A stretch of 64,000 bases of DNA. It comes from Candidatus Nomurabacteria bacterium. GTDB lineage: Bacteria > Patescibacteriota > Minisyncoccia > Phycocordibacterales > UBA9973. Made by a program: the position numbers and the translations under genes. A model generated the notes under the pieces. The model saw nothing but the letters and a program-made list of their open reading frames with translations, searched no databases and was not told the origin of the DNA. The DNA lies in the NCBI GenBank assembly GCA_023267215.1, contig JAHFNS010000001.1, positions 174,710 through 238,709 of the forward strand. The letters run 5' to 3'. Below are positions 4,787-61,037 of the stretch, piece after piece (the stretch's first letter is position 1; each line of letters starts with the position of its first letter).

Positions 4787-4849
4787 TCTGTAGTCCCTCC
4801 TAGGACTTTTTTAACTAATTAATTTTTAAAGAACAAAATACTCTCTCCT

Positions 4850-4881: not shown

Positions 4882-4945
4882 AGAAAAAAGTAATGCAAGT
4901 GCATTTTATATAAAAACTGTGGATAACCCACAATCTCTTTTTTTA

Positions 4946-14083: not shown

Positions 14084-14085
14084 AA

Positions 14086-14123
14086 ATGTGGATAACTGCC
14101 CCTAAGCTGGGCTTAGGGGCACT
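14086..14123. repeat. DnaA-box-like TGTGGATAA followed by palindrome GCCCCTAAGC-TGG-GCTTAGGGGC (member of the CCTAAGC palindrome family)
   Basis: Perfect 10-bp stem; near-identical copy at 41006..41044 with an inverted loop; sits at the 3' end of Cys-rich paralog 1. Confidence 0.6.
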
Positions 14124-15834
14124 AATATATTTCTTGCTGATAACATCGTTCACAATAAACAATCTCTGATCTATCCGGTGCATATGTCGTTTCAAATTCA
14201 TTTTGACAACCTTCTTTCATACATTTTCTGTGCCAAAGTTTTAAAGGATTTCTCAAATTGATACGTTGATAATGTCGGCAGTTTGGACAAAGTCTCGGTA
14301 AAGGCAAATTCATTCTTTTGTAAAATTTTAATTCCTCTGGAAAAATTCTAAATGCTTCTGTGCATTGTTCTTTGCATTTACCAGCATGCTCACAAGCTAT
14401 AACTTTATTTATTATGTCATCTGTAATATCTTTAATACCATCTGGTATATCCGTGCATTCTATATCAATCTTATAATTTCTAATTTCTGCATCTTCCCAA
14501 TTATAACCTTTCTCAATTGCTTCTCTTTTGTCTAACGGAAAATATTCCTGAGCAATACTTTCATTATAAGCAAAAGGTGAAAGCTCGCTCGGGAAAAATT
14601 CTCCATATTTATATGTTCTTCCTTTTTTATCTACATATGGCATATCGTCCATATGTTTGATAATTTTAGGAATTAAATCTTCATACTCTTCTTTTGTGTA
14701 CTGTTTATTTAAAATACAGTATTGTTTTTTATATAGACCCTCACAACCAAAGATATTTAAACAATCATGACATTCTTCATTGTATCTTGAATCTTGATTT
14801 GAAAAATTTCTAATACCAAAAGCCCCGTTTGATCCACCAAAACCATGAGCAATCTCATAGAGAAGTTCCGCATTAAAGCCTTGAAATGAAGTATCATAAC
14901 TATCTTTGGTATTATTTCTGCTAAAAAATAGATACTTCGAATTTTCAGCTTGTCTAGAACTAAAAGAATTGTGGGTATTTCTAACTTCATATAAATCATC
15001 CCCATTAGAATTAATAGATTTGTATATATGGGCGTAGCGATGTGGTATTTTTAAATTGAGTTTTTTTAATTTTTCTAAATTATCAAGATGTATTTTATAA
15101 CTACCAATATTATTTGATTTAATAAATTCTTGATATTTTTCCTTTGTGTATTGCTGATTGAAAATATTATATTGTTTATTTACAAGTCCAACACAACCAA
15201 AACAATTCATACAATTTCTACAATCTAACAAATAATAACTATCAATACAATCTGTACAGTTATAACTAAAAAATAAAAGATTTGTTCGTGCGCATTCAAA
15301 AAGTTCATAACTAAATTGTATTTTTTCTGAAAAAGCTATATCTAAAGAATCTTGAGAATCAAAAATTTGATTACTAAAATAAACTCGTTCATTATTTATT
15401 CCACCAAATAAAAGATAGCATTCTTTAAGATCAAGACCATAATTACAATATTCGCTTGAAACAAAATTAGTCTGATATAAATTAGATCTTGGAACTTCTA
15501 ATTGTAATAATTGAAATTGACTAAAAAATGGAACAGAAAAATCATACTCACGACCATAATCTAATGGATTCCATTCATCAGAAAGCCAACAATCATGACA
15601 ATAAATTATATATAGTCTTTTTTTGCTATAAACACTAAGTATAGATTTTTTACATATAACACACTCATGTCTATAAAATACACGATTATTGCGAAATAAT
15701 AACCTTTTTTGAAATCGACAGTCCGGACAAAATGTTGGAGCTGGAACTTTTATTTTTTCGTAGAATTTAAAATCTTCGGGCTCTATAATGAAATCCTTCT
15801 TACAGTTTTGACAATTTTTTGTTTCAGAATTCAT
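14122..15834 (-). CDS. Cysteine-rich repeat protein, paralog 1 of 7 (uncharacterised family)
   Basis: 570 aa; N-terminal CQNCKKDFIIEPEDFKFYEKIKVPAPTFCPDCR; internal CxxCxxCFGCxxL modules followed by KxYCILNKQYTKEEY; PYVDKKGRTYKYGEFFPSELSPFAYNE block; C-terminal LCPNCRHYQRINLRNPLKLWHRKCMKEGCQNEFETTYAPDRSEIVYCERCY. Confidence 0.8.
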   Translation of the reverse strand: MNSETKNCQNCKKDFIIEPEDFKFYEKIKVPAPTFCPDCRFQKRLLFRNNRVFYRHECVICKKSILSVYSKKRLYIIYCHDCWLSDEWNPLDYGREYDFSVPFFSQFQLLQLEVPRSNLYQTNFVSSEYCNYGLDLKECYLLFGGINNERVYFSNQIFDSQDSLDIAFSEKIQFSYELFECARTNLLFFSYNCTDCIDSYYLLDCRNCMNCFGCVGLVNKQYNIFNQQYTKEKYQEFIKSNNIGSYKIHLDNLEKLKKLNLKIPHRYAHIYKSINSNGDDLYEVRNTHNSFSSRQAENSKYLFFSRNNTKDSYDTSFQGFNAELLYEIAHGFGGSNGAFGIRNFSNQDSRYNEECHDCLNIFGCEGLYKKQYCILNKQYTKEEYEDLIPKIIKHMDDMPYVDKKGRTYKYGEFFPSELSPFAYNESIAQEYFPLDKREAIEKGYNWEDAEIRNYKIDIECTDIPDGIKDITDDIINKVIACEHAGKCKEQCTEAFRIFPEELKFYKRMNLPLPRLCPNCRHYQRINLRNPLKLWHRKCMKEGCQNEFETTYAPDRSEIVYCERCYQQEIY

Positions 15835-15851
15835 GATTTATCTATTCTATA

Positions 15852-15874
15852 ATTCTATAGAATATTAGAATACT
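15852..15874. promoter_or_regulatory. Conserved upstream motif ATTCTATAGAAT-A-TTAGAATAC ahead of Cys-rich paralog 1
   Basis: Perfect 12-bp palindrome; the same motif recurs upstream of paralog 3 at 22208..22232. Confidence 0.4.
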
Positions 15875-16534
15875 TTAAATCCCCTCTTTTTTAAGTTCTT
15901 CTAGAAGTTCGCGGGCTTTTTTGGAAATTTTGTTTGGTATTCTAAAATTTATTTTTATATATAAATCACCTGCTTTTCCGTTTTTTATTGCCTCACCATA
16001 ACCTGTCATTTTGATAGTCTGTTTATTGTGAATACCAGCAGAAATTTTTATAATTACTTCTTTGTTTCCACTTACTACTATCTTTTTCTCTACACCTAAA
16101 ATAGAATCAATTAAAGAAATATATATATCCATCTGCATATCTCTTCCACGAGGAGTCCGCGTAAACCCCCCTCTACCTCCAGTGAAAAAATCACTGAATA
16201 TATCATTCAAATTTCCAAAATCAAAATCTACATTCCCACCTTGGAAACCTCCACCGAAACCAGAAAAATCAAAACCTTCAAAACCACCTTGTCTAGCTCC
16301 TCCATAACCACCTGCACCCATATTTTCAAAACCAGAGCCAAATTGGTCGTATTTTGCGCGTTTAGTGTCATCTGAAAGCACTTGGTAAGCTTCATTTACT
16401 TCTTTAAATTTTGCTTCATTCCCTTCTTTTTTGTCAGGATGATATTTGTGCGCCAACTTATAAAAAGCCTTCTTTATTTCGTCTTTGGAAGCACCTTTAT
16501 TTATACCTAAAACTTCATAATAATCCTTACTCAT
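15875..16534 (-). CDS. dnaJ: DnaJ-family co-chaperone: J domain, G/F region and short C-terminal domain, lacking the CxxCxGxG zinc finger
   Basis: 219 aa; [35 protein letters not shown] with the HPD motif; Gly/Phe-rich linker; no Cys repeats. Confidence 0.8.
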
Positions 16535-20476: not shown

Positions 20477-22201
20477 TTAATACACTTCAGCTTGATAACA
20501 ACGTTCACAATAAATTATCTCTTTTCTATCTGGTGCGTAAGAAGTCTCGAATTCATTTTGACAGCCTTCTTTCATGCATTTGCGATGCCAGAGCTTCATA
20601 GGGTTACGCTTCTTTAATCTAGCCTCATGCCTACAAAGAAAACACAGATGTTGTAATGGCACTCCTATCTTTCTATATAAATTCAATTCATCTGGTGTTA
20701 TTTTATAAGCTCCTCTACAATAATTACTTTCTTTGTCTTTATTCTCACAACCTATGACTTCTTTTGTTATAGAATCATCAACATCATCTAAGCTATCTGG
20801 AAGATCTTTAGCTTCTATTGTTATTTCATATTCATTTGCCTTTTTATCTCTCCATCTATAACCCATCTCTAACGCCTTCTGTTTTGTTATTGGAAAATAA
20901 TCTTGAGCTTGAGTCTCGTTATAACAAAATGTCGAAAGTTCTGCTGGAAAAAATTCTCCATATTTATATATTCTTCCTTTTTTGTCCACATACGGCATAT
21001 TCATCATGTGCTCTTTTATTTTGGAAATTAACTCTTCATATTTTTCTTTAGAATATTGTTTATTTAAAATACAGTATTTTTTATTTCGTAATCCAATACA
21101 ACCAAACAAATTTGAACATCCATGACAACTAATGGAATATTCAACATCACTAGAACTATAAACCACACTTGTAAAAAGATTACGATAATTCCCTATCCCA
21201 GTATCGAAACATTCATACACAAGCTCTGCAAACCCTATACCAGGACCAGAATCATAAGTATCTTTCACATTTTTTGCCAACCAATGAGAATTTTTTGTAT
21301 CTTCAACATTTCCACTAATATCAAAACAGGTTTTACAATTCTTTGCACCCTCTAGATTATCACCTGTCGAATTTACAGTTTTTATCTGAACGGCGAAACG
21401 GTGTATTGTTTTTAAACAAAATTCATCAAATTTATTTTTTTGCTCTATGACACTTTTATGTTTCTTAAGATTTAATTTTTCTAAGCGTGTGTTGTATTCT
21501 TCTCTCGTTAGTTGCTCATTCCACATACAGTATGATTTGTTGCGCAAGTTCGTACAACCAAAACAATTTGTACAACCCATACAATCATATAAAAAATATG
21601 AATCAACACAACTTTTACAATTGAAAGAATACAATAAATGATAACTATCAGCACATATCATATCTTCATAACAAAGTTCTGAACGATGTAATATATAAGA
21701 ATCTAAACACTCCCTAGTTTCTGAAATTCTATTTGAATAGAATGTTTTCTCAATTCTCCAAGAACCAGAAGACATATAGCTATCTTTACTTTCTTCTGCC
21801 ACATTACAATAATCACTATTCGTAGCATGTATATTTGAAAGACATTGTATAGGAACACGGTCTCTCAATTCTCTCCATTGTTCAAAAAAATTCTTAGAAA
21901 AATCATATTCCTTTCCATATGAAGTAGAATCCCATGCATCACTCCACCAATATTCTGAATCATATACACAAACTTTTTCTTCTGGAGAAATAAAAGAAAT
22001 TATCGTTTCACTATGATTTGGAGCATCACATTTTCTTCTAAAGAAAGACATTTCATTACGCCAACATAAACGCCGAATAGTCCGACATTCCGGACAAAAT
22101 GTAGGTGGCGGAACTTTTATCTTTTCATAAAAATGAAAATCTTCAGATTCTATCTTAAATTCTTGCTTACAATTTTGACATATTTTAATTTCTTCTTTCA
22201 T
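20477..22201 (-). CDS. Cysteine-rich repeat protein, paralog 3
   Basis: 574 aa; CQNCKQEFKIESEDFHFYEKIKVPPPTFCPECR N terminus; C-terminal KLWHRKCMKEGCQNEFETSYAPDRKEIIYCERCY. Confidence 0.8.
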   Translation of the reverse strand: MKEEIKICQNCKQEFKIESEDFHFYEKIKVPPPTFCPECRTIRRLCWRNEMSFFRRKCDAPNHSETIISFISPEEKVCVYDSEYWWSDAWDSTSYGKEYDFSKNFFEQWRELRDRVPIQCLSNIHATNSDYCNVAEESKDSYMSSGSWRIEKTFYSNRISETRECLDSYILHRSELCYEDMICADSYHLLYSFNCKSCVDSYFLYDCMGCTNCFGCTNLRNKSYCMWNEQLTREEYNTRLEKLNLKKHKSVIEQKNKFDEFCLKTIHRFAVQIKTVNSTGDNLEGAKNCKTCFDISGNVEDTKNSHWLAKNVKDTYDSGPGIGFAELVYECFDTGIGNYRNLFTSVVYSSSDVEYSISCHGCSNLFGCIGLRNKKYCILNKQYSKEKYEELISKIKEHMMNMPYVDKKGRIYKYGEFFPAELSTFCYNETQAQDYFPITKQKALEMGYRWRDKKANEYEITIEAKDLPDSLDDVDDSITKEVIGCENKDKESNYCRGAYKITPDELNLYRKIGVPLQHLCFLCRHEARLKKRNPMKLWHRKCMKEGCQNEFETSYAPDRKEIIYCERCYQAEVY

Positions 22202-22207
22202 TCTAAT

Positions 22208-22232
22208 ATTCTATAGAATTTTAGAATAGATA
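22208..22232. promoter_or_regulatory. Conserved upstream motif ATTCTATAGAAT-TT-TAGAATAGATAC ahead of paralog 3
   Basis: Same 12-bp palindrome plus TAGAATA as upstream of paralog 1. Confidence 0.4.
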
Positions 22233-26974: not shown

Positions 26975-27000
26975 GAAATTTAAAAAATTTTAAGAGTCGT

Positions 27001-27045
27001 GTTGGTCCCCTGTCCTCTTGACTCCGAGGGCGAAGGCTCAAGAAA
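27001..27045. repeat. Degenerate GC-rich element (...GAGGGCGAAGGCTCAAG), intergenic
   Basis: Shares GAGGGCGAAGG with the 26504 copy; GC island in an AT-rich spacer. Confidence 0.35.
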
Positions 27046-27072
27046 TTTTTTGAAATTCCCTATTTTTTATTT

Positions 27073-28947: not shown

Positions 28948-28990
28948 AATTTAACTCTTTCACACATATACGCTATCGCTGATATGTGTA

Positions 28991-30706: not shown

Positions 30707-30713
30707 AATTCAA

Positions 30714-30731
30714 TCTACGCCATGGCGTAGA
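30714..30731. promoter_or_regulatory. Perfect palindrome TCTACGCCATGGCGTAGA just upstream of the paralog 4 start
   Basis: 18-bp inverted repeat; related ACGCCATGGC at 32641..32652 upstream of paralog 5. Confidence 0.4.
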
Positions 30732-30840
30732 TGCTACTTTTTGATATTGTGCCACCAGATTTTAACGCGAAATTTAACTGTCTGCCAAGCCATTGGCACA
30801 ACATATCTGATATATTTTAATTTTGTTTTTATTCTGTTCA

Positions 30841-32622: not shown

Positions 32623-32664
32623 AATCCAGATTCCCCCATATACGCCATGGCTGATATGAGGGAA

Positions 32665-34900: not shown

Positions 34901-34927
34901 ATATTAGCATATCTTTTAAAAAAGATA

Positions 34928-35012
34928 AAATAATACTTTTTTCGACATACGCTTCAAAAAGATACTTAACGATATCAGGTTCGAGTGCGAGCCGTTAAAA
35001 AGTGTTATTTTA
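34928..35012. repeat. ~85-nt intergenic element, copy A (second copy at 48312..48396)
   Basis: About 85% identical to copy B: ACTTTTTTCGACATACGCT...AGATACTTAA.GA..TCAGGTTCG.GTGCGAG.CG..AAAAAGT. On the minus strand it contains sigma-70-like TTGAAG-N16-TATTAT ahead of grpE. Confidence 0.55.
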
Positions 35013-38833: not shown

Positions 38834-38955
38834 AAAAATATTTAATTGACCAAAACAAGACAAAAATAAAGGGAAAACCCTTATTTTTCAATGTTTAAAA
38901 TCTTTTATAAACTGTAATTACTATAATACACCATTCTTAAAAAAAATACAACTAT

Positions 38956-39201
38956 TTAAAACCTTTTTATTATTCTTCCTTTTCCACCATAAGGATCGAG
39001 TACGACCTCTACAGAATCCCCAATTAAAACTTTAATTCTATGCATACGCATTTTTCCACTAAGATAAGCCAGAATTTCTTTCTTCCCTTCTATATTACTT
39101 TCTGTTTTATCTTCAATTTGAACTCTAAACAAAGTAGAAGGTAATGATTCAGTAATAACCCCTCTAGTCGTTAAAATTTTTTCGTTTTTTAAATCACTCA
39201 T
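38956..39201 (-). CDS. infA: Translation initiation factor IF-1
   Basis: 81 aa; S1-like OB fold; GVITESLPSTLFRVQIE...MRMHRIKVLIGDSVEV. Confidence 0.9.
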   Translation of the reverse strand: MSDLKNEKILTTRGVITESLPSTLFRVQIEDKTESNIEGKKEILAYLSGKMRMHRIKVLIGDSVEVVLDPYGGKGRIIKRF

Positions 39202-39253
39202 TAAGTACTATGATTATAATAAATATAAAACTTTAAGTCAAAGCACAATGTTG

Positions 39254-39297
39254 ATAAGCTGGGCTTAAGGAAACTTCTCCTAAGCCCAGCTTACGGG
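39254..39297. repeat. Long hairpin TAAGCTGGGCTTAAGGA-AACTTC-TCCTAAGCCCAGCTTA (CCTAAGC palindrome family) at the 3' end of paralog 7
   Basis: About 16-bp stem read directly; shares its core with the 14098, 41021 and 50635 copies. Confidence 0.6.
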
Positions 39298-39300
39298 AAA

Positions 39301-41004
39301 TTAATATACCTCTTGATTATAACATTTCTCACAGTAAATTATTTCTGGTCTATCTGGTGCATAGCTAGTCTCAAACTCGTTTTGGCAACCATCTTTCATA
39401 CACTTTCTATGCCAAAGTTTAAGAGGATTTCTTTGTTTAAGTCTATTATAGTGTCTGCAGTTAGGACAGAAGTGAGAAATGGGTAGATTCATTCGTTTAT
39501 AGAAGGATAGCTCATCTGGTATGATTTTGAAGGCTTCAGTACATTGTTCATTACATTTTCCTTTATGTTCACATTCTATGACTTTGTTCACGATATCATC
39601 TTTCACATCTTTTATATCATTAGGAATATCTTCATTCTTAATGTCTATTGTGTAATTTCTCTCTTCTTTATCTTTCCACTTATATCCTTGTGTTATGGCT
39701 TCTTCTTTAGTTAATGGGAAGTATTCTTGGGCTATGGTTTCGTTATAGCAGAATGGACTTAATTCACTTGGGAAGAATTCACCGTATTTATAGATTCTTC
39801 CCTTTTTATCTATATAGGGCATATCGTTCATGTGTTTGATTATCTTGGGGACTAATTCTTCGTATTCTTCCTTTGTATATTGTTTGTTTAAGATGCAGTA
39901 TTGTTTGGAACGGAGACCGATGCAGGCGAAACAATTATTACAAACATAACAAAAATCACAATAAGAAAGTTCACTTGATTCTCCACAAGTATTGGTAATT
40001 TTCGTATTAGTATTTTTCCAAAATGATATATTCTCATAAACGAGTTCCATAAATTCACAAAAGTTTGCATCATAAACATTACGACCATCTATCATTCTGG
40101 TACAATACTTTTCGTCTTCACATTTTTTCACGTCAAAACAATCATGAACATTTTTTGACTGGATGATATTATTTCCTGATACATTTTTACTCTGTAACTC
40201 TATTGAAAATTTATGAGGAATTGTTTTTTTAACTTTCAAAAACTCTTCTTTCACTTTTTCAAGTCCCTCTTTTGTATTTAAGCCTAATGCATTTTTTTTA
40301 TTTGAAAATTCCTCTTTTGTATAGGCTTTATTAAAAATATGATATTTCTGTCCACGAAGACCTACACAACCAATACAATCTTGGCAATTTTTACAATCGA
40401 AGCAATAAATTAGGTCAAAAGAATTTGAACATTCTTGTGCAAAAATAGAATGGGAAAGTTTTTCACAATCTATGCATTCATAACAATATTCACATTCTCG
40501 TGCTAGGTGTGTATCAATACAATTCTTTGATTCATAAGGAGAACCATACATACAATCTTCAATGGCAATAGAACCAAAACAAAGATAGGAATTTTTTACA
40601 TCGCCAACATAATTACAATAATCACTATTATAAACAAAATTTGCGTTTAAATTTATTCTTGGTACTTTTTCTTGTAACTCCTTTAATTGAATAAAAAAGT
40701 TTTTAGAGAAATCATAATCTATTCCATAAGATAAAGCATCCCAATTGTCAGACCAAAAATAATCTCTTTCATATACTTTATATGGTTTATCTAAAGAATA
40801 AACGGAAATTATATTTTTACCAGTTCCATCACACAATCTTTTATAAAGAGAACGTTCATTTCTGAAAGAAAAACGTCTAATTAATCTACATTCCGGACAA
40901 AAAGTTGGAGGTGGAACTTTGATTTTTTCATAAAATCCAAAATCATCTGGCTCTATAATAAAGTCTTTTTTGCAATTCTGGCAATTTCTAGTTTCACTTT
41001 GCAT
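39301..41004 (-). CDS. Cysteine-rich repeat protein, paralog 7
   Basis: 567 aa; N-terminal 45 aa nearly identical to paralog 2; C terminus nearly identical to paralog 1 (KLWHRKCMKDGCQNEFETSYAPDRPEIIYCEKCY). Confidence 0.8.
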   Translation of the reverse strand: MQSETRNCQNCKKDFIIEPDDFGFYEKIKVPPPTFCPECRLIRRFSFRNERSLYKRLCDGTGKNIISVYSLDKPYKVYERDYFWSDNWDALSYGIDYDFSKNFFIQLKELQEKVPRINLNANFVYNSDYCNYVGDVKNSYLCFGSIAIEDCMYGSPYESKNCIDTHLARECEYCYECIDCEKLSHSIFAQECSNSFDLIYCFDCKNCQDCIGCVGLRGQKYHIFNKAYTKEEFSNKKNALGLNTKEGLEKVKEEFLKVKKTIPHKFSIELQSKNVSGNNIIQSKNVHDCFDVKKCEDEKYCTRMIDGRNVYDANFCEFMELVYENISFWKNTNTKITNTCGESSELSYCDFCYVCNNCFACIGLRSKQYCILNKQYTKEEYEELVPKIIKHMNDMPYIDKKGRIYKYGEFFPSELSPFCYNETIAQEYFPLTKEEAITQGYKWKDKEERNYTIDIKNEDIPNDIKDVKDDIVNKVIECEHKGKCNEQCTEAFKIIPDELSFYKRMNLPISHFCPNCRHYNRLKQRNPLKLWHRKCMKDGCQNEFETSYAPDRPEIIYCEKCYNQEVY

Positions 41005-41005
41005 A

Positions 41006-41044
41006 ACTGTGGATAACTGCCCCTAAGCCCAGCTTAGGAGAGAT
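41006..41044. repeat. CTGTGGATAACTGCCCCTAAGC-CCA-GCTTAGGAG (DnaA-box-like motif plus CCTAAGC palindrome) at the 5' side of paralog 7
   Basis: Near-identical to 14086..14123 with the loop inverted. Confidence 0.6.
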
Positions 41045-42354
41045 TATTTTGGATAATTTACAATAACTTGAATGCTTTTACTTTTATCAGGAAAAGAAGA
41101 TTTCCAAAAAGGACGAAGAACTAACTCAGCAGAATCAATATTTGGGTACTTGGATAAAATCTGGTTAAACTCAGTTTTCTTTTTTCCTAATACATCATTA
41201 ATGAATGATGTTTGATCAACTTTCCAAATGATTTTCGAAGTACCAGTTAAAGTGAAATTAATACTTTTTACATCTGCAAAAGATACATTTTCTTTATCTG
41301 CTAAAACGAAAGACATATCTCTAATGTTTGGTATATAAATATCTTCTCCTGCGTATTTATCAACAATATCTTCTGCTATTTTTTTGGTTAACTTTTTTTC
41401 ATCAAAAAGAAAACCATAAAGGGTACCTTTCACTTTTACCGAAACTTTATTATCTTTATCTGGAGAAAAAGTGATATCTTTATCTAAAATACTGGTAAAT
41501 ACAGCATCTTTGTAAAGGATAAACCCACTTGGAATCTGATCTGTTACTTTTTTCACAAGCTTAGTCTCTAAAATAGCTTTTAGTTCATTCACTGCACTCG
41601 CCTTATCTAATGAAGATACAACTGGTGATTTACCTTTAAAACCACCACTAATATCTCCCTTTGACCTAGCATAAAATTTAGAATACTTAGGTGTGCCCTT
41701 AAATCCTAAAATTTTAAAATCTAACGGAGTACTGTTGTATTCTTCTCCGCCTTCTGCTCCATAGATACCTACCTCGACGTTTCCAGGTTTACCATCTTTT
41801 GTGATTCCGGGTACAGTTATTTTATTACTTGTCTTGTAAATTTTTCCATTTGACCCCTCTAAGCGAGTATCTATGTCGAGCATTTGTGGGGAAGAATTGT
41901 AAGAGTTATAAACAATGATAGTGCCTGTAGCTTTTATGGTTGTGTCTTTCATTTCTCCACCCTGTATAGATTTATTTTCTTCTCCTGAAATAACAACTAA
42001 ATCAAAAGATAAACCAGGTGTACTTAAATCTTTTGTAGCTGTTAAATTATCATTCAATTGTATTTCTTTTACCTTGGGAATTATTGTAATTTTGGCACCA
42101 GAAAATAAAAAAGAAAGAGCAAAAAGAAGAAATAAAACAGAAATAAACGCTACAAAAAAAAGCCTATACTTAGATTTTTTACTGCTCTTTTTTACTCCAC
42201 CATAAACTATTTCTCTTTCTCTTATTTTTTCTTTTTTTCTATCAGAAAAACTCTCAGCATTAATAGTAGGTCTCTCTTTAACTTTTATAATTTTTATAGA
42301 TGCAGGTGTATGAGTTTTAACTTTCACCATATCCTGCATTAAATTTTTTGCCAT
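41044..42354 (-). CDS. Hypothetical single-pass membrane-anchored protein (possibly PilN/PilO-like)
   Basis: 436 aa; basic cytoplasmic N terminus, one TM segment (VAFISVLFLLFALSFLF), large extracytoplasmic domain; placed downstream of an actin-fold ATPase. Confidence 0.3.
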   Translation of the reverse strand: MAKNLMQDMVKVKTHTPASIKIIKVKERPTINAESFSDRKKEKIREREIVYGGVKKSSKKSKYRLFFVAFISVLFLLFALSFLFSGAKITIIPKVKEIQLNDNLTATKDLSTPGLSFDLVVISGEENKSIQGGEMKDTTIKATGTIIVYNSYNSSPQMLDIDTRLEGSNGKIYKTSNKITVPGITKDGKPGNVEVGIYGAEGGEEYNSTPLDFKILGFKGTPKYSKFYARSKGDISGGFKGKSPVVSSLDKASAVNELKAILETKLVKKVTDQIPSGFILYKDAVFTSILDKDITFSPDKDNKVSVKVKGTLYGFLFDEKKLTKKIAEDIVDKYAGEDIYIPNIRDMSFVLADKENVSFADVKSINFTLTGTSKIIWKVDQTSFINDVLGKKKTEFNQILSKYPNIDSAELVLRPFWKSSFPDKSKSIQVIVNYPK

Positions 42355-42363
42355 AATATAATT

Positions 42364-43566
42364 TTAACAAATAAAACGATTAATATAAACAGACTCAATA
42401 ATAAGGAATGGGTCACGATCTATATTTTCTTTATCTGAGTAATCCAATCGGACAGATTTGAAATCTACATTTCCGTGAAGAATTTGGTTATTCAAAAATA
42501 TAATTTTAAACTTGGAAATAGTTGAAATATATTGATTAAATTGTTCCCTATTAATAATATCACCAAAAAAATCTGCAAAATCTTGATCTACTGTTATAAA
42601 AATAGTTGATGGAATAGATGTATTTTTTGAAATATCCACTAAAGATTTTTGGAATAGATCAAGCCATTCTGTTTTTAATTTATCCATAACAGGACCAATT
42701 TTTTTAAAAATGGCATCCGAGGCATGTCCATCCATATAGATGGAAATATAAGTTTTTGCTTCATCTAAGGAACAATTTAATTTGGTAGCGGTTTTGCGAA
42801 TCATAAAATTACGTCCTAAAGGAAAAGAAACAGAACTTATTAACGCTTCTTTTTTGATTATAGAAATATCCGTCATCTCTCCACAAATATCCATTAAAAG
42901 AAAGTCTTCCTGGCTCATAAACATATCTCGAACGATGGTGAAAGATGCTATGGTAAAAGAAGAAAATCTTATGTCTCTCGGATGAAAGTGTTTAAATATA
43001 CTCTCTTCAATTTTTTTTAAAACTTTTTCTCCACTCATAGAAACAAAAATATTCATCTCGAGCTTTTGACATTTTTTATTAAAAGGTTCTTTAGTTACAT
43101 AACCATTTAACATGGTCTTAATATTTTTAAATTCAATCATTCTAATTTTATTTGGAGTATCTTTAAATTCTGCCAAGTGCTCTTTTTCAAATAAACTTAT
43201 CTCTTTTTGAATTAAACCGTCAGCAAGTTTAGAAGTAAATATGAAAGGAATATTTTTCTCTAATTTAATAATTCTAGTCTCCGAGACATACCAAGGTGAA
43301 GAAAGAACACAGAAAATTTTGGTTGGATTTCCAACCGAAGATAAAGATATTTTTTTAGCTATAATATCAAGTGCTTTTAAAGTTAATAAAAGAAACCTAT
43401 CGGAATCCATCTTGTTTTCAAAAGTTATTGATTCTCTAATAGAAAAAATTATTTTAGGAGTTTTGTTTTTATTTATTTCAAAAACTGCACCTCCAACAGA
43501 AGAAGATCCAATATCAAAAACTAAACCTAATTTCTTCCCTTCTGCTTTCTTAGAAAAGATTCCCAT
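42364..43566 (-). CDS. Actin-like ATPase-fold protein (PilM/FtsA-like)
   Basis: 400 aa; N-terminal phosphate-1 motif GLVFDIGSSSVGGAVFE typical of the ASKHA/actin fold. Confidence 0.4.
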   Translation of the reverse strand: MGIFSKKAEGKKLGLVFDIGSSSVGGAVFEINKNKTPKIIFSIRESITFENKMDSDRFLLLTLKALDIIAKKISLSSVGNPTKIFCVLSSPWYVSETRIIKLEKNIPFIFTSKLADGLIQKEISLFEKEHLAEFKDTPNKIRMIEFKNIKTMLNGYVTKEPFNKKCQKLEMNIFVSMSGEKVLKKIEESIFKHFHPRDIRFSSFTIASFTIVRDMFMSQEDFLLMDICGEMTDISIIKKEALISSVSFPLGRNFMIRKTATKLNCSLDEAKTYISIYMDGHASDAIFKKIGPVMDKLKTEWLDLFQKSLVDISKNTSIPSTIFITVDQDFADFFGDIINREQFNQYISTISKFKIIFLNNQILHGNVDFKSVRLDYSDKENIDRDPFLIIESVYINRFIC

Positions 43567-43590: not shown

Positions 43591-45234
43591 CTATAGAAGC
43601 ACAGCCTTTATACGTCTAACTCCAGCTGAAACAGCTTCTTCTTTTATTATTTTAAATTGTCCTAATTCACCTGTATTTTTGACATGCGGCCCTCCACAAA
43701 ATTCTTTTGAAATTTGATTCCCATCTTTGTCTTCAATAAAATATACGCTCACCATATCTGGGTATTTAGCTCCGAATTCCATTTCTGCCCCTATTTTTTC
43801 TGCCTCAGAAAGAGGCATTTCACAACGAATAACGTCAAGCTTATTTTCTATTTTTTCATTAACAAAATCTTCTACTTTCTTTTTTTCTTCATCTGTTAGT
43901 TTGTGATCACAAATGAAATCTATACGCAAACGTTCTTCTGTGATATTACTTCCCTTTTGTTTTATATTTTTATCAACAATATTTTGTAAACCAGCTAAAA
44001 GTAAATGATGTGCAGTATGTAATCTAATAGTTTTTTCATTATGATTAAGAAGTCCACCCTTGAACATTCCCGCCGAAGCAGTCTGCGAAAGCCTCTGGTG
44101 TTCTGCCATTTTTTTATTAAAATCTTCTAAATCTATCTTTTGTTCTTTCTCTTTTGCAAGCTCAAGAGTAAGCTCGATTGGGAAACCATAAGTAGTAGCC
44201 AAAATAAATGGATCTTCTCCTCTTTCAAATTCTTTTAAACCTCTACCTAGCGTTTCTCTAAATTTTTGTTCTTCTTTATTTATTTCTCCATTATCATTCA
44301 AAACATAAATACCTTCATACCTTTTTTTATTTCTTTCAATTATTTTTTCTAATGGCTCCTTAGAAAATCTTACAGCCCTGCGTACTAATCTCCTCAAAAC
44401 ATATCCTCGTCCAGTATTAGAAGGTAAAACTCCATCAGAAATAATAAAAAGTGCAGCTTTTATATGGTCAGAAATAATTCTCTCTTCTTTTGCCTTTTCT
44501 CCATTAAATAAATCCGTATCATAAACACTTTCTTTTTTTTGTACTATCGAAACCAATCTTTCAAGTCCCATACCTGTATCAATACCCAATATATCTAGCT
44601 TTTTAAGGGTTACCTCACCTTTATCTAATTTTTCTCGAGAACCATCACAAAAATACTCATTGAAAACTATATTCCAAATTTCAACATCTTCTCCGTTTGC
44701 ATTTTTGCAATAAACTTCTGTAGTTCTACCACAAGGACCAGAATTTCCTGTCGGTCCCCAAAATACATCTTCCCCTTCTTCTTTTATATTTTTAACTCCG
44801 ATTTCTTTCCAAATTCTTTCTGACTCTTCATCTTTCGGAACATTTTTACTTCCTTTATAAACTGTCACATAAGAAATATCCAAATTCATTTCTTTAGTAA
44901 TAAAATCATAAGCATACTCTATCGCTTCTTTTCTTCCATATCCACCAAAAGAAAAATTACCCAACATTTCAAAAAATGTTAAATGCGTAGAATCTCCGAC
45001 TTCATCAATATCTCCTGTACGTATACATTTTTGAATAGTGGTTACATTTAAACTTCCAAAATCTTTTTCTGCATCCTTTGGATTAATATAATAAGGTTTA
45101 AATTGTTGCATTCCTGCCGTTGTAAAAAGTACTGAAGGATCATTCTCAGGTATTAATAAAGAAGAAGGTATTATTTTGTGTCCTCTTTTCTCAAAAAACT
45201 TTAAAAATCTTGACCTAATTTCATTTGAATCCAT
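43591..45234 (-). CDS. alaS: Alanyl-tRNA synthetase, short form (catalytic plus editing domains, no C-Ala domain)
   Basis: 547 aa; FTTAGMQQFKPYY catalytic motif; editing-domain HTAHHLL and CGGPHV zinc motifs. Confidence 0.85.
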   Translation of the reverse strand: MDSNEIRSRFLKFFEKRGHKIIPSSLLIPENDPSVLFTTAGMQQFKPYYINPKDAEKDFGSLNVTTIQKCIRTGDIDEVGDSTHLTFFEMLGNFSFGGYGRKEAIEYAYDFITKEMNLDISYVTVYKGSKNVPKDEESERIWKEIGVKNIKEEGEDVFWGPTGNSGPCGRTTEVYCKNANGEDVEIWNIVFNEYFCDGSREKLDKGEVTLKKLDILGIDTGMGLERLVSIVQKKESVYDTDLFNGEKAKEERIISDHIKAALFIISDGVLPSNTGRGYVLRRLVRRAVRFSKEPLEKIIERNKKRYEGIYVLNDNGEINKEEQKFRETLGRGLKEFERGEDPFILATTYGFPIELTLELAKEKEQKIDLEDFNKKMAEHQRLSQTASAGMFKGGLLNHNEKTIRLHTAHHLLLAGLQNIVDKNIKQKGSNITEERLRIDFICDHKLTDEEKKKVEDFVNEKIENKLDVIRCEMPLSEAEKIGAEMEFGAKYPDMVSVYFIEDKDGNQISKEFCGGPHVKNTGELGQFKIIKEEAVSAGVRRIKAVLL

Positions 45235-45238
45235 AAAC

Positions 45239-45727
45239 TTATCTTTCTTTATTTAAATTTTCATCAGAAATTCTTCTAATTGGTTTTTCAAGAATATTAA
45301 GAAAAATAAAAATCAAAAGTACTAAAATAGTTGATATAATTGCAAGATTAAAAAGTCCGAATCCAGCAGCCATACCAATGCCTGCAGTCACCCAAAGTCC
45401 ACCAGCGGTCGTAAGCCCCCTTGTACGAGAATCTCTGAACATTATCATACCAGCGCCAAGAAAGCCGATACCCACAATAATATTAGAAGCTATCATTACA
45501 GGATTAAAACCTGGTGTATTTATATATTTTTCTCCCATAGTCTCAGAAATCATTATAAAAAGAGCTGCTCCCATAGAAACAAGGGCATGAGTTTTCATTC
45601 CCGCTTCTTTATGTACCAAAAGACGTTCAACACCAATAAGCATTCCTAAAACTATCGCTACTATTAATTTTAAAAAAATATCACTATTTTGTATAAAAAA
45701 TTGTTCCATATAATAATCATACAACAA
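45239..45727 (-). CDS. MgtC/SapB-family membrane protein
   Basis: 162 aa; LIVAIVLGMLIGVERLLVHKEAGMKTHALVSMGAALFIM MgtC signature. Confidence 0.75.
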   Translation of the reverse strand: MLYDYYMEQFFIQNSDIFLKLIVAIVLGMLIGVERLLVHKEAGMKTHALVSMGAALFIMISETMGEKYINTPGFNPVMIASNIIVGIGFLGAGMIMFRDSRTRGLTTAGGLWVTAGIGMAAGFGLFNLAIISTILVLLIFIFLNILEKPIRRISDENLNKER

Positions 45728-46910
45728 TTCCTCCGCCTAAACAAACATCTTTATCATATATGACACAAGATTGCCCAGAGGCCACCAATATAGGTTTTTT
45801 AAATATAACCTCTGCGGAAGCCTTGCTTCCGCAAATTACATTACAGGTCAAAAATTCACTATGATAACGAATTTGAGCTGTGTAAGTTTTATCTTGTTTA
45901 GGAGTAGTAAAGATCCAATTTATATTACTTATTTTAATTTCTTCCCCTCCTTGATGAGGAGGGGTGCCCTTTAGGGTGGGGTGGTGCTTTTTAGAATTAC
46001 CACCCCCTGCCCCCTCCTCCACGAGGAGGGGGTTAAGATTTTTGTCTTGCGACACATATAAAATATTTTTCTTTATATCTTTACCAACTATATAATAGGC
46101 TCCATCATTAGGACTTTTTTTAATAATAGTAAAACCATGACGTTCTCCTAAAGTATGGAAAACTACTCCATCGTGATATCCAATTTCTTCTCCTTTTTCA
46201 TTCCCCGCCTCTGACGGGGCAAGCAAAACTTTTCCCTTTTTTTCTTTAATATAATGTTTCAAAAAATCTTTCAAATCTACAGCCCCTAGAAAGCAAATAC
46301 CCTGGCTATCTTTTTTAAGAGCGACTGGCAATTTGAATTTTTTAGCAAGCTTGCGGACTTCTGTTTTTTTTAGATGACCTATAGGAAATAAAATTCTACT
46401 TAATTGCTCTTGCTTCAATGTCCACAAAAAATATGATTGATCTTTTGAAGGGTCAATGCCTTTTCTTAAATTTTTGGAAAAAGTCGGCCCTTTTTGAATT
46501 CTTAAGGGCCGGCCTTCTCCAAAAATTTGTGCATAATGCCCTGTTGCGATGTAGTCAGCTCCCATAGCAATTGCTTTTTTAAGAAAAGCCCCAAATTTCA
46601 CTTCTTTATTACACATCACATCAGGATTCGGCGTTCTCCCTCTCTTATATTCGGCAATCATATAGTCTGCAACTTCTTTTTTATACACGTCACTCAAATC
46701 AAAAGTAAGAAATGGAATATCCAAAAAAGCTGCGACGCGCATAGCGTCCAGGCGTTCTTCTTCTTCATTACATTCCAAGAAATCCGGATGCCAAGTACGT
46801 ATAAAAACCCCGACTACGTCATAGCCTTGTTTTTTTAATAATGCTGCACTTACAGCAGAATCAACACCACCAGATAAACCAACAAATACTACTTTTTTAT
46901 TCTTTTTCAT
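45717..46910 (-). CDS. mnmA: tRNA-specific 2-thiouridylase MnmA
   Basis: 397 aa; PP-loop VGLSGGVDSAVSA; conserved catalytic Cys; carries an ~85-nt GC-rich in-frame insertion encoding EEGAGGGNSKKHHPTLKGTPPHQGGEE. Confidence 0.85.
   Translation of the reverse strand: MKKNKKVVFVGLSGGVDSAVSAALLKKQGYDVVGVFIRTWHPDFLECNEEEERLDAMRVAAFLDIPFLTFDLSDVYKKEVADYMIAEYKRGRTPNPDVMCNKEVKFGAFLKKAIAMGADYIATGHYAQIFGEGRPLRIQKGPTFSKNLRKGIDPSKDQSYFLWTLKQEQLSRILFPIGHLKKTEVRKLAKKFKLPVALKKDSQGICFLGAVDLKDFLKHYIKEKKGKVLLAPSEAGNEKGEEIGYHDGVVFHTLGERHGFTIIKKSPNDGAYYIVGKDIKKNILYVSQDKNLNPLLVEEGAGGGNSKKHHPTLKGTPPHQGGEEIKISNINWIFTTPKQDKTYTAQIRYHSEFLTCNVICGSKASAEVIFKKPILVASGQSCVIYDKDVCLGGGIVV
45944..46032. repeat. Composite GC-rich palindromic element (CCCCTCCTTGATGAGGAGGGG ... 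GGTGG..CCACC ... CCCCCTCCTCCACGAGGAGGGGG), in frame inside mnmA
   Basis: Two hairpins related to the family 1 core plus a third stem; strongly GC-rich against the surrounding coding sequence. Confidence 0.6.
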
Positions 46911-48294: not shown

Positions 48295-48311
48295 ATAATT
48301 TATAAAATCTA

Positions 48312-48396
48312 AAATAGTACTTTTTTCGACATACGCTACTGTAAGATACTTAATGACGTCAGGTTCGTGTGCGAGTCGTGAAAAAGTAGCTATTTT
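48312..48396. repeat. ~85-nt intergenic element, copy B
   Basis: See copy A at 34928..35012; located upstream of the exonuclease gene on the minus strand. Confidence 0.55.
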
Positions 48397-50632: not shown

Positions 50633-50675
50633 ACCCCTAAGCTCCGCTTAGGGGTTCCAGAAGCCCAGCTTATTT
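50633..50675. repeat. CCCCTAAGC-TCCG-CTTAGGGG palindrome plus an AGAAGCCCAGCTTA fragment (CCTAAGC family)
   Basis: Perfect 9-bp stem; the adjacent half-copy matches the arms of the 39254 and 41021 copies. Confidence 0.55.
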
Positions 50676-60521: not shown

Positions 60522-60545
60522 TTAAATAGTATATATTGAAACAAT

Positions 60546-61016
60546 ATGAATATAAAGCTTGAAATCATTTTTTTTGTTTTTCTTGGGATAATTATTTTAA
60601 TCGATGCTATTTGGATATTCAGGACAGAAAAACGTCTAAGGAAGTTTTTTGCTGGTAAAAAAGCTAAGGACCTAGAAGAAAACATAGAAGTATTAGAAGA
60701 AAATATTTTAAAATTAAAATTAGCTAAAGAAGAAATAGAAAAAGAGTTAAAAAATATAAATACAAAATTAAGAAAAAGTATAAGAGGTCTTGAAACAATT
60801 CGTTTCAATCCTTTTCCAGACCAAGGCAGTAATCAAAGTTTCGCTATAGGAATCATGAATGAAGATGGTGATGGAGTAGTACTTTCTAGTTTATATTCTC
60901 GAGAAAGAATGAGTATATTTGCCAAATCTATTAAAAATGGTAAATCAGAATACGAACTTACTAAAGAAGAAAAAGAGGTTTTAAAAAAAGCAGAAGTAGA
61001 GCACAAAGCTTTATAA
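60546..61016 (+). CDS. Hypothetical protein: N-terminal TM segment plus coiled coil
   Basis: 156 aa. Confidence 0.5.
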   Translation: MNIKLEIIFFVFLGIIILIDAIWIFRTEKRLRKFFAGKKAKDLEENIEVLEENILKLKLAKEEIEKELKNINTKLRKSIRGLETIRFNPFPDQGSNQSFAIGIMNEDGDGVVLSSLYSRERMSIFAKSIKNGKSEYELTKEEKEVLKKAEVEHKAL

Positions 61017-61037
61017 ATTTTGTATTAACAAAATAAA

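What the first reader, a model, noticed from the sequence alone, without database searches (positions are those of the whole stretch)
39301..41044. A Cys-rich paralog inserted in the ribosomal-protein/infA cluster, bracketed by palindromic repeats
The gene order is rpsI, rplM, rplQ, rpoA, rpsD, rpsK, rpsM, rpmJ and infA. Where map, adk and secY would normally sit upstream, paralog 7 is present instead.

Paralog 7 is flanked by 41006..41044 (CTGTGGATAACTGCCCCTAAGC-CCA-GCTTAGG) and 39254..39297 (a long TAAGCTGGGCTTAAGGA / TCCTAAGCCCAGCTTA hairpin). The same element sits 3' of paralog 1 at 14086..14123, with the loop inverted (TGGG versus CCCA).

The repeats may be terminators, but they also look like the ends of a duplicated cassette. 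The TGTGGATAA within two of them is a perfect DnaA-box sequence.
Basis: seen in the sequence. Interest (0 to 1): 0.55.

Follow-up and report, generated by a model that had tools for sequence, protein, structure and literature searches.

The report
Gene insert flanked by selfish palindromes
A cysteine-rich gene of unknown function has been slotted in front of the infA/ribosomal-protein operon of an ultra-small (Patescibacteria) bacterium, and the hairpin repeats on either side of it are copies of a dispersed palindromic element that also sits in frame inside housekeeping genes of close relatives, not cassette ends or DnaA sites.

Summary
P7 (39301-41004, minus strand) is an intact 567-aa, 40-Cys gene, one of seven paralogs in the window, between a 436-aa membrane-protein gene and infA, and it is flanked by related palindromes.

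- The lineage baseline is alaS / ftsA-like / 436aa / infA, not secY-adk-map. Of 68 sister loci with the 436aa homolog upstream of infA, 60 have an empty 23-102 nt spacer.
- P7 is a real insertion at a hotspot. Five sister genomes carry a Cys-rich gene there; the three complete ones belong to other subfamilies. One carries a frameshifted remnant and four carry unrelated inserts.
- P7's true orthologs (69-80% identity) sit in five other gene contexts.
- The palindromes belong to a dispersed family ("A") that occupies the empty site as a single copy in the sister genome L031. Other copies lie between rplF and rplR, and in frame inside mnmA, an IleRS-type synthetase, lepA and gatB. This resembles Rickettsia palindromic elements.
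- P7 is bracketed by a direct duplication of the element's ~20-nt core, the signature of repeat-mediated insertion or deletion.
- The element is nevertheless enriched directly 3' of Cys-rich genes (5 of 14 copies).
- The DnaA-box 9-mer is part of a 21-nt segment copied twice. Nothing supports an origin or DnaA function.

The parts
39301..41004 (-). P7: intact 567-aa Cys-rich gene (40 Cys). It belongs to a Patescibacteria-wide family with no annotation. The model shows N- and C-terminal zinc-ribbon/treble-clef-like modules and two central beta-solenoids.
41005..41043 (-). 5' spacer between the 436aa stop and the P7 start. It holds the left arm/short hairpin of the family-A palindrome (41017-41042) plus the tail CAGTTATCCACAGTT, which contains the DnaA-box-like 9-mer (41008-41016). 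There is no room for a promoter.
   Evidence: Sequence. Fold -12.7 kcal/mol. 21 nt identical to 14087-14107. Its left junction, directly after the 436aa stop, matches the left junction of the single element in L031.
39254..39294 (-). 3' flank of P7: full family-A palindrome, TAAGCTGGGCTTAGGA / TCCTTAAGCCCAGCTTA. It is joined to TCAACAT in the same way that the L031 single copy is joined to TTAACAT.
   Evidence: Spacer fold -33.5 kcal/mol, z -6.7. No T-run, and not called by the terminator scan. L031 comparison.
39213..39241 (-). infA promoter, TTGACT-17-TATAAT. It lies downstream of the 3' palindrome, so infA and the ribosomal genes keep their own promoter.
   Evidence: Best promoter match in the region, 11 of 12. 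TTGAC-N16-19-TAnnnT is present in 54 of 60 empty sister spacers.
38956..39201 (-). infA, the first gene of the infA-rpmJ-rpsM-rpsK-rpsD-rpoA-rplQ-rplM-rpsI block.
   Evidence: Pfam eIF-1a and the ribosomal families.
41044..42354 (-). 436-aa membrane-protein gene, last gene of the alaS / ftsA-like / 436aa unit. It is the ancestral upstream neighbour of infA in this clade.
   Evidence: A homolog lies upstream of infA in 68 of 80 sister loci, 60 of them with a spacer of 110 nt or less.
14084..14121 (-). 38-nt spacer between the P1 stop and the start of the 196-aa gene. It holds a family-A short hairpin (14097-14121, loop inverted) plus the tail CAGTTATCCACATTT. It is the closest copy of the P7 5' spacer.
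   Evidence: Fold -20.1 kcal/mol, z -5.1. 31 of 38 identical to the P7 5' spacer.
50634..50673 (+). Family-A copy not adjacent to any Cys-rich gene: CCCCTAAGCTCCGCTTAGGGG-TTCCAG-AAGCCCAGCTTAT. On the minus strand it follows the stop of a sigma-like gene and is followed by a T-rich run, so it looks like a terminator.
   Evidence: 87.5% identical over 40 nt to the L031 empty-site element.
14122..15834 (-). P1, a Cys-rich paralog, 52% identical to P7 in MAFFT alignment A1 (54% in the pairwise MAFFT alignment).

Best explanation
**What is shown**
- P7 is a functional-looking member of a very large, uncharacterised Patescibacteria family of ~570-aa cytoplasmic Cys-rich proteins.
- It sits in a recurrent insertion slot: the short spacer between the last gene of the alaS / ftsA-like / 436aa unit and the infA promoter.
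- The palindromes around it are not part of the gene. They are copies of a lineage-specific dispersed palindromic repeat, family A, with core CCCCTAAGCTGGGCTTAGGGG-N-AAGCCCAGCTTA.
- Family A behaves like selfish palindromic DNA of the REP or Rickettsia-RPE type. It is found after stop codons, inside operons, and in frame inside housekeeping genes.
- In the sister genome L031 the slot is empty and holds one complete copy of the element.
- In the window that resident copy is split. Its left junction and core lie 5' of P7. A second copy of the core, the right arm and the original right junction lie 3' of P7.

**What is inferred**
- The difference between the two genomes is 'gene plus one copy of a ~20-nt repeat'. 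This is what recombination at the repeat would give. Either a P7-bearing segment carrying its own copy integrated by a single crossover, or the gene was deleted between the two copies in the relative.
- Insertion is the more likely direction for P7, because its orthologs lie elsewhere in other genomes.
- P7 has no promoter of its own. It is probably read through from the upstream unit, across a hairpin that lacks a U-tract.
- infA keeps its conserved promoter downstream of the 3' palindrome.
- The DnaA-box 9-mer is a passenger in the tail of a segment that was copied twice.
For: **Slot and baseline**
- 68 of 80 sister loci have the 436aa homolog upstream of infA, 60 of them with an empty spacer of 110 nt or less. 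54 of those 60 carry the promoter motif.

**Hotspot**
- Cys-rich genes occupy the slot in L003, L029, L069, L012 and L053.
- L013 holds a frameshifted N-terminus/C-terminus remnant.
- L004, L005, L007 and L078 hold unrelated inserts.

**Independent events**
- The L003, L029 and L069 inserts are 43-52% identical to P7 and to each other.
- The 3' junctions differ: stop inside the -35 box, stop inside TTAACAT, stop plus 11 nt, or stop plus palindrome.

**P7 orthologs are elsewhere**
- The P7 orthogroup (65-85% mutual identity) lies after purB, S30AE, rnc, rseP and dnaJ in five other genomes.

**Element census**
- Window: 4 sites. L031: 3 sites, one at the empty slot and two in frame in mnmA.
- Metagenome scan: copies 3' of three further Cys-rich genes, between rplF and rplR, and inside an IleRS-type gene, lepA and gatB.
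- The mnmA alignment shows two insert sites that are empty in 3 of 16 genomes. Every insert over 42 nt folds as a hairpin with z from -2.4 to -10, against -0.1 to -1.2 at the empty sites.

**Junction logic**
- L031 reads TAA-TTATTTCCCCTAAGCTGGGCTTAGGGGACAGAAGCCCAGCTTATTAACAT.
- The window reads TAA-TCTCTCCTAAGCTGGGCTTAGGGGCAG...P7...TAA-TTTCCCGTAAGCTGGGCTTAGGAGAAGTTTCCTTAAGCCCAGCTTATCAACAT.

**Age**
- The P1|196aa and 436aa|P7 spacers are 31/38 identical (21-nt perfect run), against 50% third-position identity between the P1 and P7 genes.

**Transcription signals**
- infA promoter and absence of T-runs after the P7 hairpins.
Against: - The donor site and the direction of the event (insertion here or deletion in L031) are not demonstrated.
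- Two independent arrivals of the element, one after the 436aa gene and one after P7, would also give flanking copies. The matching left and right junctions argue against this but do not exclude it.
- Only 64 kb of the source genome was available, and L031 is only a moderately close relative: 69% identity for the 436aa protein and 84% for IF1.
- The excess of family-A copies right after Cys-rich genes is not explained by a purely selfish element.
- Mobility of the palindromes is inferred from their distribution. No transposase was identified.
- The metagenome sample is biased towards well-preserved long-form copies.
Confidence: 0.68

Rival explanations
1. Cassette model. The palindromes are the ends of a mobile or duplicated Cys-rich gene cassette, comparable to an integron cassette with its attC site, and they travel with the gene.
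For: - 5 of 14 family-A copies lie directly 3' of Cys-rich genes of different subfamilies: P1, P7 and the genes in L085, L087 and L091.
- P7 is flanked by direct repeats.
- A second hairpin family, ATCTACGC..GCGTAGAT, also recurs next to Cys-rich genes in the window, L013, L085 and L105.
- Different subfamilies occupy the same slots in different genomes.
Against: - P7 orthologs in L001, L002, L083, L084 and L085 have unrelated flanks.
- The element occurs at the empty slot in L031, after unrelated genes, inside ORFs and inside the spc operon.
- Paralogs P2 to P6 have other flanks or none.
- The flanks are far more similar than the genes.
- No integrase or transposase family appeared among the window ORFs scanned against Pfam.
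- The family is essentially absent from viral contigs.
Confidence: 0.15
2. The hairpins are ordinary intrinsic terminators or mRNA-stabilising 3' stem-loops. They look alike only because of shared ancestry or convergence.
For: - All intergenic copies lie within a few bases of a stop codon.
- The 50634-50673 copy is followed by a T-rich run.
- 21% of all spacers of 30 nt or more in these genomes hold a hairpin of -12 kcal/mol or stronger. Cys-rich genes are not significantly different (44%, n = 16, p = 0.15).
Against: - There is no T-run after the P7 or P1 copies, and the terminator scan does not call them.
- One copy lies between rplF and rplR inside a ribosomal operon. Five copies lie in frame inside housekeeping ORFs.
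- Near-identical sequence at unrelated loci, with presence/absence at orthologous sites.
Confidence: 0.12
3. Ancestral-presence model. A Cys-rich gene was originally present between the 436aa gene and infA, and most lineages lost it. P7 would then be a positional descendant rather than a newcomer.
For: - The L013 frameshifted remnant shows that losses do occur at this slot.
- Six genomes carry a Cys-rich gene there.
- Deletion between P7's flanking repeats would give exactly the L031 state.
Against: - The occupants belong to different subfamilies, at 43-52% identity. True P7 orthologs at 69-80% lie in other contexts.
- The junctions differ between genomes.
- 60 of 68 loci are empty, including the sister loci with the highest 436aa identity (64-70%: L074, L031, L015, L052, L027, L043, L008, L047).
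Confidence: 0.2
4. The TTATCCACA sites are functional DnaA boxes, either regulating P7 and the 196-aa gene or marking an origin.
For: A perfect consensus 9-mer lies 3-4 nt upstream of two start codons. One-mismatch boxes are slightly enriched in the window: 30 found against 20.5 expected.
Against: - The two sites are one duplicated 21-nt segment.
- The only box within 100 nt of the 41008 site is a one-mismatch match 32 nt away, inside the conserved C-terminal codons of the 436aa gene.
- No dnaA or dnaN among the window ORFs scanned against Pfam.
- GC skew is uniformly negative from 1 to 60 kb.
- The 9-mer occurs about once per 45 kb in sister loci.
- The 3' flank of P7 carries TTATCAACA and sister genomes carry TTATTAACA at the corresponding place. 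The perfect box may be a variant of promoter-upstream sequence.
Confidence: 0.03

Closest known systems
Rickettsia palindromic elements (RPEs; Ogata et al. 2000, cited from my own knowledge)
   Same: Dispersed palindromic repeats in a small, reduced genome. They occur both between genes and in frame inside conserved protein-coding genes, with presence/absence between relatives.
   Different: Family A is shorter, at ~35-50 nt against ~100-150 bp. Sequence similarity to RPE families was not tested. The host is a Patescibacteria lineage. It shows an unexplained excess directly 3' of one gene family.
REP/BIME repetitive extragenic palindromes of Proteobacteria
   Same: Short imperfect palindromes just downstream of stop codons, in either orientation, without a U-tract. 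They are known to stabilise mRNA and to serve as recombination substrates.
   Different: REPs are extragenic by definition and are mobilised by RAYT transposases. Here five copies are intragenic and no RAYT-like gene was seen in the ORFs scanned.
Integron gene cassettes (promoterless ORF plus palindromic attC)
   Same: A promoterless ORF with a palindrome at its 3' end, inserted co-directionally at a fixed slot. Different family members occupy the same slot in different genomes.
   Different: No integrase, no attI or cassette array, and no attC core-site consensus visible by eye in the tail (not formally scanned). The palindrome also occurs inside ORFs and at the empty slot. Orthologs elsewhere lack it.
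Small hairpin-loop inversions and template-switch mutations at quasipalindromes (known from chloroplast and bacterial genomes; from my own knowledge)
   Same: The 14101 and 41022 copies differ by an exact inversion of the 3-nt loop (TGG/CCA) with identical stems and flank.
   Different: This explains only the loop flip, not the distribution of the element.
Cys-ladder beta-solenoid proteins and left-handed beta-helix proteins (for example insect antifreeze proteins, LpxA and gamma-carbonic anhydrase)
   Different: No significant sequence or Foldseek match. P7 has terminal zinc-ribbon-like modules and no signal peptide by eye. Its function is unknown.

Membership tests
Intrinsic (Rho-independent) terminator | G+C-rich stem-loop | tested here: met
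   Hairpins of -12.7, -20.1 and about -27 kcal/mol.
Intrinsic (Rho-independent) terminator | U/T-run immediately after the stem | tested here: not met
   The tails are GTTATCCACA and TCAACATTGTG. The terminator scan does not call them. Only the 50634-50673 copy has a T-rich tail.
Intrinsic (Rho-independent) terminator | Located at the end of a transcription unit | tested here: inconclusive
   Some copies follow stop codons. Others lie between rplF and rplR or inside ORFs. No transcript data.
REP/BIME | Short imperfect palindrome repeated at many unrelated loci | tested here: met
   4 sites in the 64-kb window, 3 in the 12-kb L031 locus, 7 in low-GC metagenome contigs. The genome-wide count could not be tested.
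REP/BIME | Strictly extragenic | tested here: not met
   In-frame copies in mnmA (two), an IleRS-type gene, lepA and gatB.
REP/BIME | Associated RAYT (IS200/IS605-like) transposase | not testable with these tools
   None among the window ORFs scanned against Pfam. The rest of the genome was unavailable.
RPE-like intragenic palindromic element | In-frame insertion in conserved genes, absent from orthologs | tested here: met
   The mnmA alignment shows two sites, empty in L027/L064/L079 (site 1) and in L038/L064/L079 (site 2). Every insert over 42 nt folds with z from -2.4 to -10.
RPE-like intragenic palindromic element | Sequence homology to the described RPE families | not tested
   No RPE sequences were available. 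Rfam at gathering threshold found only tRNAs in the window. The claim is 'works like', not 'is a member'.
Integron cassette / attC | Integrase and attI next to an array of cassettes | tested here: not met
   No integrase family among the window ORFs scanned against Pfam. The paralogs are interleaved with housekeeping genes.
Integron cassette / attC | The palindrome travels with the ORF | tested here: not met
   Five P7 orthologs have unrelated flanks. The element is present at the empty slot.
DnaA box / oriC | Consensus 9-mer TTATCCACA | tested here: met
   Perfect at 14087, 41008 and 4918.
DnaA box / oriC | Cluster of several boxes with an AT-rich unwinding element, next to dnaA/dnaN, at a GC-skew switch | tested here: not met
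   No cluster, no dnaA or dnaN among the ORFs scanned, uniform skew across the locus.
DnaA box / oriC | DnaA binding | not testable with these tools
   Needs EMSA or ChIP.
Treble-clef zinc finger families (Pfam PF13451 zf_Tbcl, PF23477 zf_Tbcl_2), for the P7 termini | Pfam score above the gathering threshold | tested here: not met
   P7 has no hit. P1 scores E 0.029, 14.7 bits, against a cutoff of 24. One homolog (P0071) carries a precomputed PF23477 hit.

The most novel reading that the evidence does not exclude
Nomurabacteria-type Patescibacteria may shuffle members of one large Cys-rich gene family among a small set of fixed intergenic slots: 436aa|infA, dnaJ|196aa, after rpsI/grpE and after rseP. 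The shuffling would use recombination at dispersed palindromic elements, giving an integron-like cassette exchange without an integrase. The same palindromes would be selfish RPE-like DNA that has colonised essential genes of these streamlined genomes.
Probability: 0.2. Interest if true: 0.8.

Novelty: new member of a known kind. Interest (0 to 1): 0.5.

Why it matters
- Patescibacteria are regarded as extremely streamlined, so selfish palindromes in their genes are unexpected. The window and its relatives carry several families of dispersed palindromes, some in frame within essential genes (mnmA, lepA, gatB, an aminoacyl-tRNA synthetase).
- In-frame palindromes of this kind are classically known from Rickettsia. 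I found no paper in the held library that links them to this phylum.
- The locus gives a concrete before/after pair, the window against L031. That pair makes repeat-mediated gain or loss of a gene directly testable.
- It also exposes a very large family (at least 7952 clusters in the database) of Cys-rich beta-solenoid proteins. Their copies sit next to translation and chaperone genes and change position between genomes. Their function is entirely unknown.

Tried and rejected
- **Protein family searches.** Pfam, NCBIfam, PADLOC and PDB sequence searches of P7 gave nothing at threshold.
- **Phage carriage.** Only one fragmentary hit to the family in viral contigs, and no hit for the hairpin-plus-tail sequence.
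- **Rfam.** Only tRNAs in the window.
- **TTATTAACAT as a deletion scar.** I considered that this motif in empty slots is the remains of the Cys-rich gene's last codons. I rejected it because L012 has the gene's stop codon, then 11 nt, then the motif.
- **Donor site.** I considered an ancestral order dnaJ-P1-S-P7-S-196aa as the donor. It is not supported: L105 and L085 have a different, conserved leader before the 196aa gene, and another subfamily sits in that slot.
- **Generic hairpin enrichment after Cys-rich genes.** Not significant (p = 0.15, n = 16).
- **Literature.** Searches for Cys-rich proteins or palindromic elements in this phylum returned nothing relevant.
- **Source contig DNA.** It could not be fetched beyond the window.
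Full report
**1. What is in the window**

The window has about 32% G+C. Its proteins match Nomurabacteria and Paceibacteria MAGs.

Reading the minus strand, the gene order is:
- alaS (43591-45234), an ftsA-like gene (42364-43566) and a 436-aa membrane-protein gene (41044-42354);
- P7 (39301-41004);
- infA, rpmJ, rpsM, rpsK, rpsD, rpoA, rplQ, rplM, rpsI and grpE;
- P6, P5, P4 and an ABC transporter gene;
- dnaK, a TrwB/HerA-like ATPase gene with a zinc finger, P3, a 194-aa gene and P2;
- a second TrwB-like ATPase gene, dnaJ, P1 and a 196-aa gene.

The seven Cys-rich paralogs have 29-40 cysteines each and are 35-52% identical to P7.

**2. Check of the observation**

- CCTAAGC-N3-GCTTAGG occurs three times, against none in 100 shuffles. 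The third copy, at 50636, follows a sigma-like gene rather than a Cys-rich gene.
- The DnaA-box 9-mer occurs three times, against 0.82 expected. Five of 100 shuffles reach three.
- Two of those three sites lie in a 21-nt segment that is identical at 14087-14107 and 41008-41028. They count as one event.

**3. What P7 is**

P7 has at least 7952 homologs in the protein collection. All are unnamed, and all named sources are Patescibacteria. There is no match at threshold in Pfam, NCBIfam, PADLOC or PDB sequences.

An AlphaFold2 model built on 56 sequences is confident, with pLDDT 85 and pTM 0.83. It shows:
- N- and C-terminal modules of the same type, with the motif CxxC...FYxK..(V/L)P...CPxCR;
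- two central beta-solenoids, each followed by a helix.

I see no signal peptide in the sequence. I therefore read P7 as a cytoplasmic, probably metal-binding, solenoid protein of unknown function. That reading is inference.

**4. The true baseline of the locus**

I fetched 80 infA loci from species representatives.
- In 68 of them the homolog of the 436-aa gene lies upstream of infA, preceded by the ftsA-like gene and alaS.
- In 60 of these the spacer is 110 nt or less.
- 54 of those 60 contain TTGAC-N16-19-TAnnnT.

So map, adk and secY are not the expected neighbours in this clade. In the window the same promoter is present after the 3' palindrome: TTGACT-17-TATAAT at 39241-39213, the best match in the region.

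**5. The slot is a hotspot**

Besides the window, the slot is occupied as follows.
- A Cys-rich gene lies directly upstream of infA in L003, L029 and L069, which are complete, and in L012 and L053, where the contigs are cut.
- L013 holds a remnant: the first 21 codons joined out of frame to the last 25 codons.
- L004, L005, L007 and L078 hold other small inserts.

These look like independent events.
- The occupants are 43-52% identical to P7 and to each other.
- Their 3' junctions differ. The stop codon lies inside the -35 box in L003 and L053, and inside TTAACAT in L029 and L013. In L012 the stop is followed by 11 nt. In the window it is followed by the palindrome.

By contrast, real P7 orthologs (65-85% mutual identity) lie in other places: after purB, after the S30AE hibernation factor gene, between rnc and an SMC-like gene, after rseP, and after dnaJ. 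So the gene changes position while staying conserved.

The dnaJ|196aa slot behaves the same way. It holds P1 in the window, a P7 ortholog in L085, other subfamilies in L105 and L107, and nothing in L002.

**6. What the palindromes are**

The core AAGCTGGGCTT/AAGCCCAGCTT occurs only in the window and in L031, out of 921 kb of related DNA.

In L031 the empty 436aa|infA spacer reads TAA-TTATTTCCCCTAAGCTGGGCTTAGGGGACAGAAGCCCAGCTTATTAACAT, followed by the promoter. This single copy combines two junctions seen in the window:
- the left junction of P7's 5' copy, directly after the 436aa stop;
- the right junction of P7's 3' copy (AAGCCCAGCTTA-TCAACAT).

The two other L031 copies lie in frame inside mnmA. 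An alignment of 16 MnmA proteins shows two insert sites that are empty in three genomes. Every insert over 42 nt folds into a hairpin, with z from -2.4 to -10 against -0.1 to -1.2 at the empty sites. Different palindrome families occupy the same site in different genomes.

A metagenome scan for the long form returned 19 contigs. The eight low-G+C contigs represent seven distinct copies, because L090 and L097 are the same locus:
- directly 3' of Cys-rich genes of three further subfamilies (L085, L087, L091);
- between rplF and rplR (L090/L097);
- in frame inside an IleRS-type synthetase gene, lepA and gatB.

The window contains further families.
- Family B, at 26975-27072, is 85-95% identical to copies in nine sister genomes, mostly inside mnmA.
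- Family C is at 34926-35003 and 48310-48387.
- Two in-frame palindromes lie in the window's own mnmA.

This is the behaviour of selfish palindromic DNA of the REP or RPE type, not of cassette ends.

**7. How P7 relates to the palindromes**

P7 is bracketed by a direct duplication: CCTAAGCTGGGCTTAGGGGCAG on the 5' side and CGTAAGCTGGGCTTAGGAGAAG on the 3' side, 18 of 22 identical. The outer junctions are those of the single L031 copy.

The window and L031 therefore differ by 'P7 plus one repeat copy'. That is the expected product of recombination at the repeat, in one of two ways:
- single-crossover integration of a segment that carried its own copy. The 38-nt P1|196aa spacer shows that a stop-core-CAGTTATCCACAnTT-ATG spacer exists in this genome;
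- deletion between the two copies in the relative.

This step is inference. I could not identify the donor.

The repeats are not relics of the gene duplication. P1 and P7 are 62% identical in DNA and 50% at third codon positions, yet the shared spacer is 31/38 identical with a 21-nt perfect run.

The exact TGG/CCA loop flip between otherwise identical copies is what template switching at a hairpin produces. That attribution rests on general knowledge.

**8. Association with Cys-rich genes**

Five of 14 family-A copies, or five of nine intergenic copies, lie directly 3' of a Cys-rich gene. With assumed base rates of 1.7-12%, binomial p is 0.02 to 2.5e-6 for n = 14, and 2e-3 to 2e-7 for n = 9.

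In contrast, strong hairpins of any kind are not significantly more common after Cys-rich genes than after other genes with spacers of 30 nt or more (44% against 21%, n = 16, p = 0.15).

The specific association is real in this sample but unexplained.

**9. Terminator and DnaA readings**

The P7 and P1 copies lack a T-run and are not called by the terminator scan. One family member sits inside the spc operon. These are therefore not efficient terminators everywhere. With only 39 nt and a hairpin upstream, P7 is most likely expressed by read-through from the alaS / ftsA-like / 436aa unit.

For DnaA:
- there is no box cluster;
- there is no dnaA or dnaN among the ORFs scanned;
- GC skew is uniformly negative from 1 to 60 kb;
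- the neighbouring one-mismatch box lies in conserved coding sequence.

**10. Verdict**

The palindromes are new members of a known kind, dispersed palindromic elements that tolerate coding regions, in a phylum where I found no description of them. P7 belongs to a large protein family that has not been studied and that changes position between genomes.

Noticed in passing
window 46464-46529 and 45933-46046 (inside mnmA, 45717-46910, minus strand): Two in-frame palindromic inserts in the tRNA-modification gene mnmA, with dG -32 and -56 kcal/mol and z -10 and -8.6. The same two sites carry different palindromes in 13 sister genomes and are empty in three.
   Followed up: yes
window 26975-27072 (between the convergent PaaX-like and ABC transporter genes): Palindromic element 'family B' (...TTCGCCCTCGGAGTCAAGAGGACAGGGGACC...). 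It is 85-95% identical to copies in nine sister genomes whose proteins are only ~50-70% identical. Most of those copies lie inside mnmA.
   Followed up: partly
window 34926-35003 (grpE|rpsI spacer) and 48310-48387 (RNase T-like|yceG spacer): Two copies of a third repeat, 'family C', 86% identical over 78 nt. It is also found in L047, L053 and L008. They are not tRNAs.
   Followed up: partly
window 15839-15872 and 22200-22232; also L003 4177-4196, L007 ~10807-10837, L010 ~10873-10904, L038 ~11016-11048: An AT-rich palindrome, TATTCTAATATTCTATAGAATTATAGAATA, abuts the start codons of P1 and P3. It also abuts Cys-rich genes in four sister genomes, at 96-100% over 26-29 nt in L007, L010 and L038 and 95% over 20 nt in L003. 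It looks like a conserved promoter or operator giving nearly leaderless mRNAs. P7 lacks it.
   Followed up: partly
window 28948-28990, 30707-30840, 32623-32664; L013 ~1800-1834; L085 ~300-342; L105 7535-7614: Another hairpin family, ATCTACGC-N4-GCGTAGAT and the related CATATCAGC..GCGTATATG, recurs between or next to Cys-rich genes in several genomes.
   Followed up: partly
window 13493-34900: The grpE, dnaK and dnaJ chaperone genes are interleaved with six Cys-rich paralogs and two TrwB/HerA-like ATPase genes. One ATPase carries a treble-clef zinc finger (PF23477). The same neighbourhood (Cys-rich, TrwB-like, dnaJ) recurs in L002, L085, L105 and L107.
   Followed up: partly
window 15875-16534: dnaJ encodes only 219 aa and lacks the CXXCXGXG zinc-finger domain. 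Sister genomes have 364-370 aa with that domain. It may be a shortened or decaying copy.
   Followed up: no
L013 1835-1975: Frameshifted remnant of a Cys-rich gene at the 436aa|infA slot. The N-terminal 21 codons (MKSKIKSCQNCKNDFAIEPEE) are joined out of frame to the C-terminal 25 codons (EFETSYAPDRPEIVYCEKCYQQEVY*).
   Followed up: yes
window 60522-61037: GC skew changes sign and gene orientation flips at a 516-nt spacer between a class-V aminotransferase gene (minus) and infB (plus). This looks like an origin or a terminus, yet no DnaA box with one mismatch or fewer lies there.
   Followed up: no
window 4839-4892 and 4918-4926: A 27-bp near-perfect hairpin (-33.6 kcal/mol) downstream of a TrpR-like gene. 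It is followed by the third perfect TTATCCACA, within ACTGTGGATAAC, a 12-mer shared with 41007-41018.
   Followed up: no
window 13493-14083: The source annotation starts this gene 24 codons downstream (P0124, 172 aa). Homologs at 89-90% identity support the 196-aa start that abuts the family-A spacer.
   Followed up: partly
window 38869-38882: A canonical bidirectional terminator (AAGGGTTTTCCCTT plus T-runs) lies between infA and rpmJ. infA may therefore be transcribed separately from the ribosomal genes.
   Followed up: no
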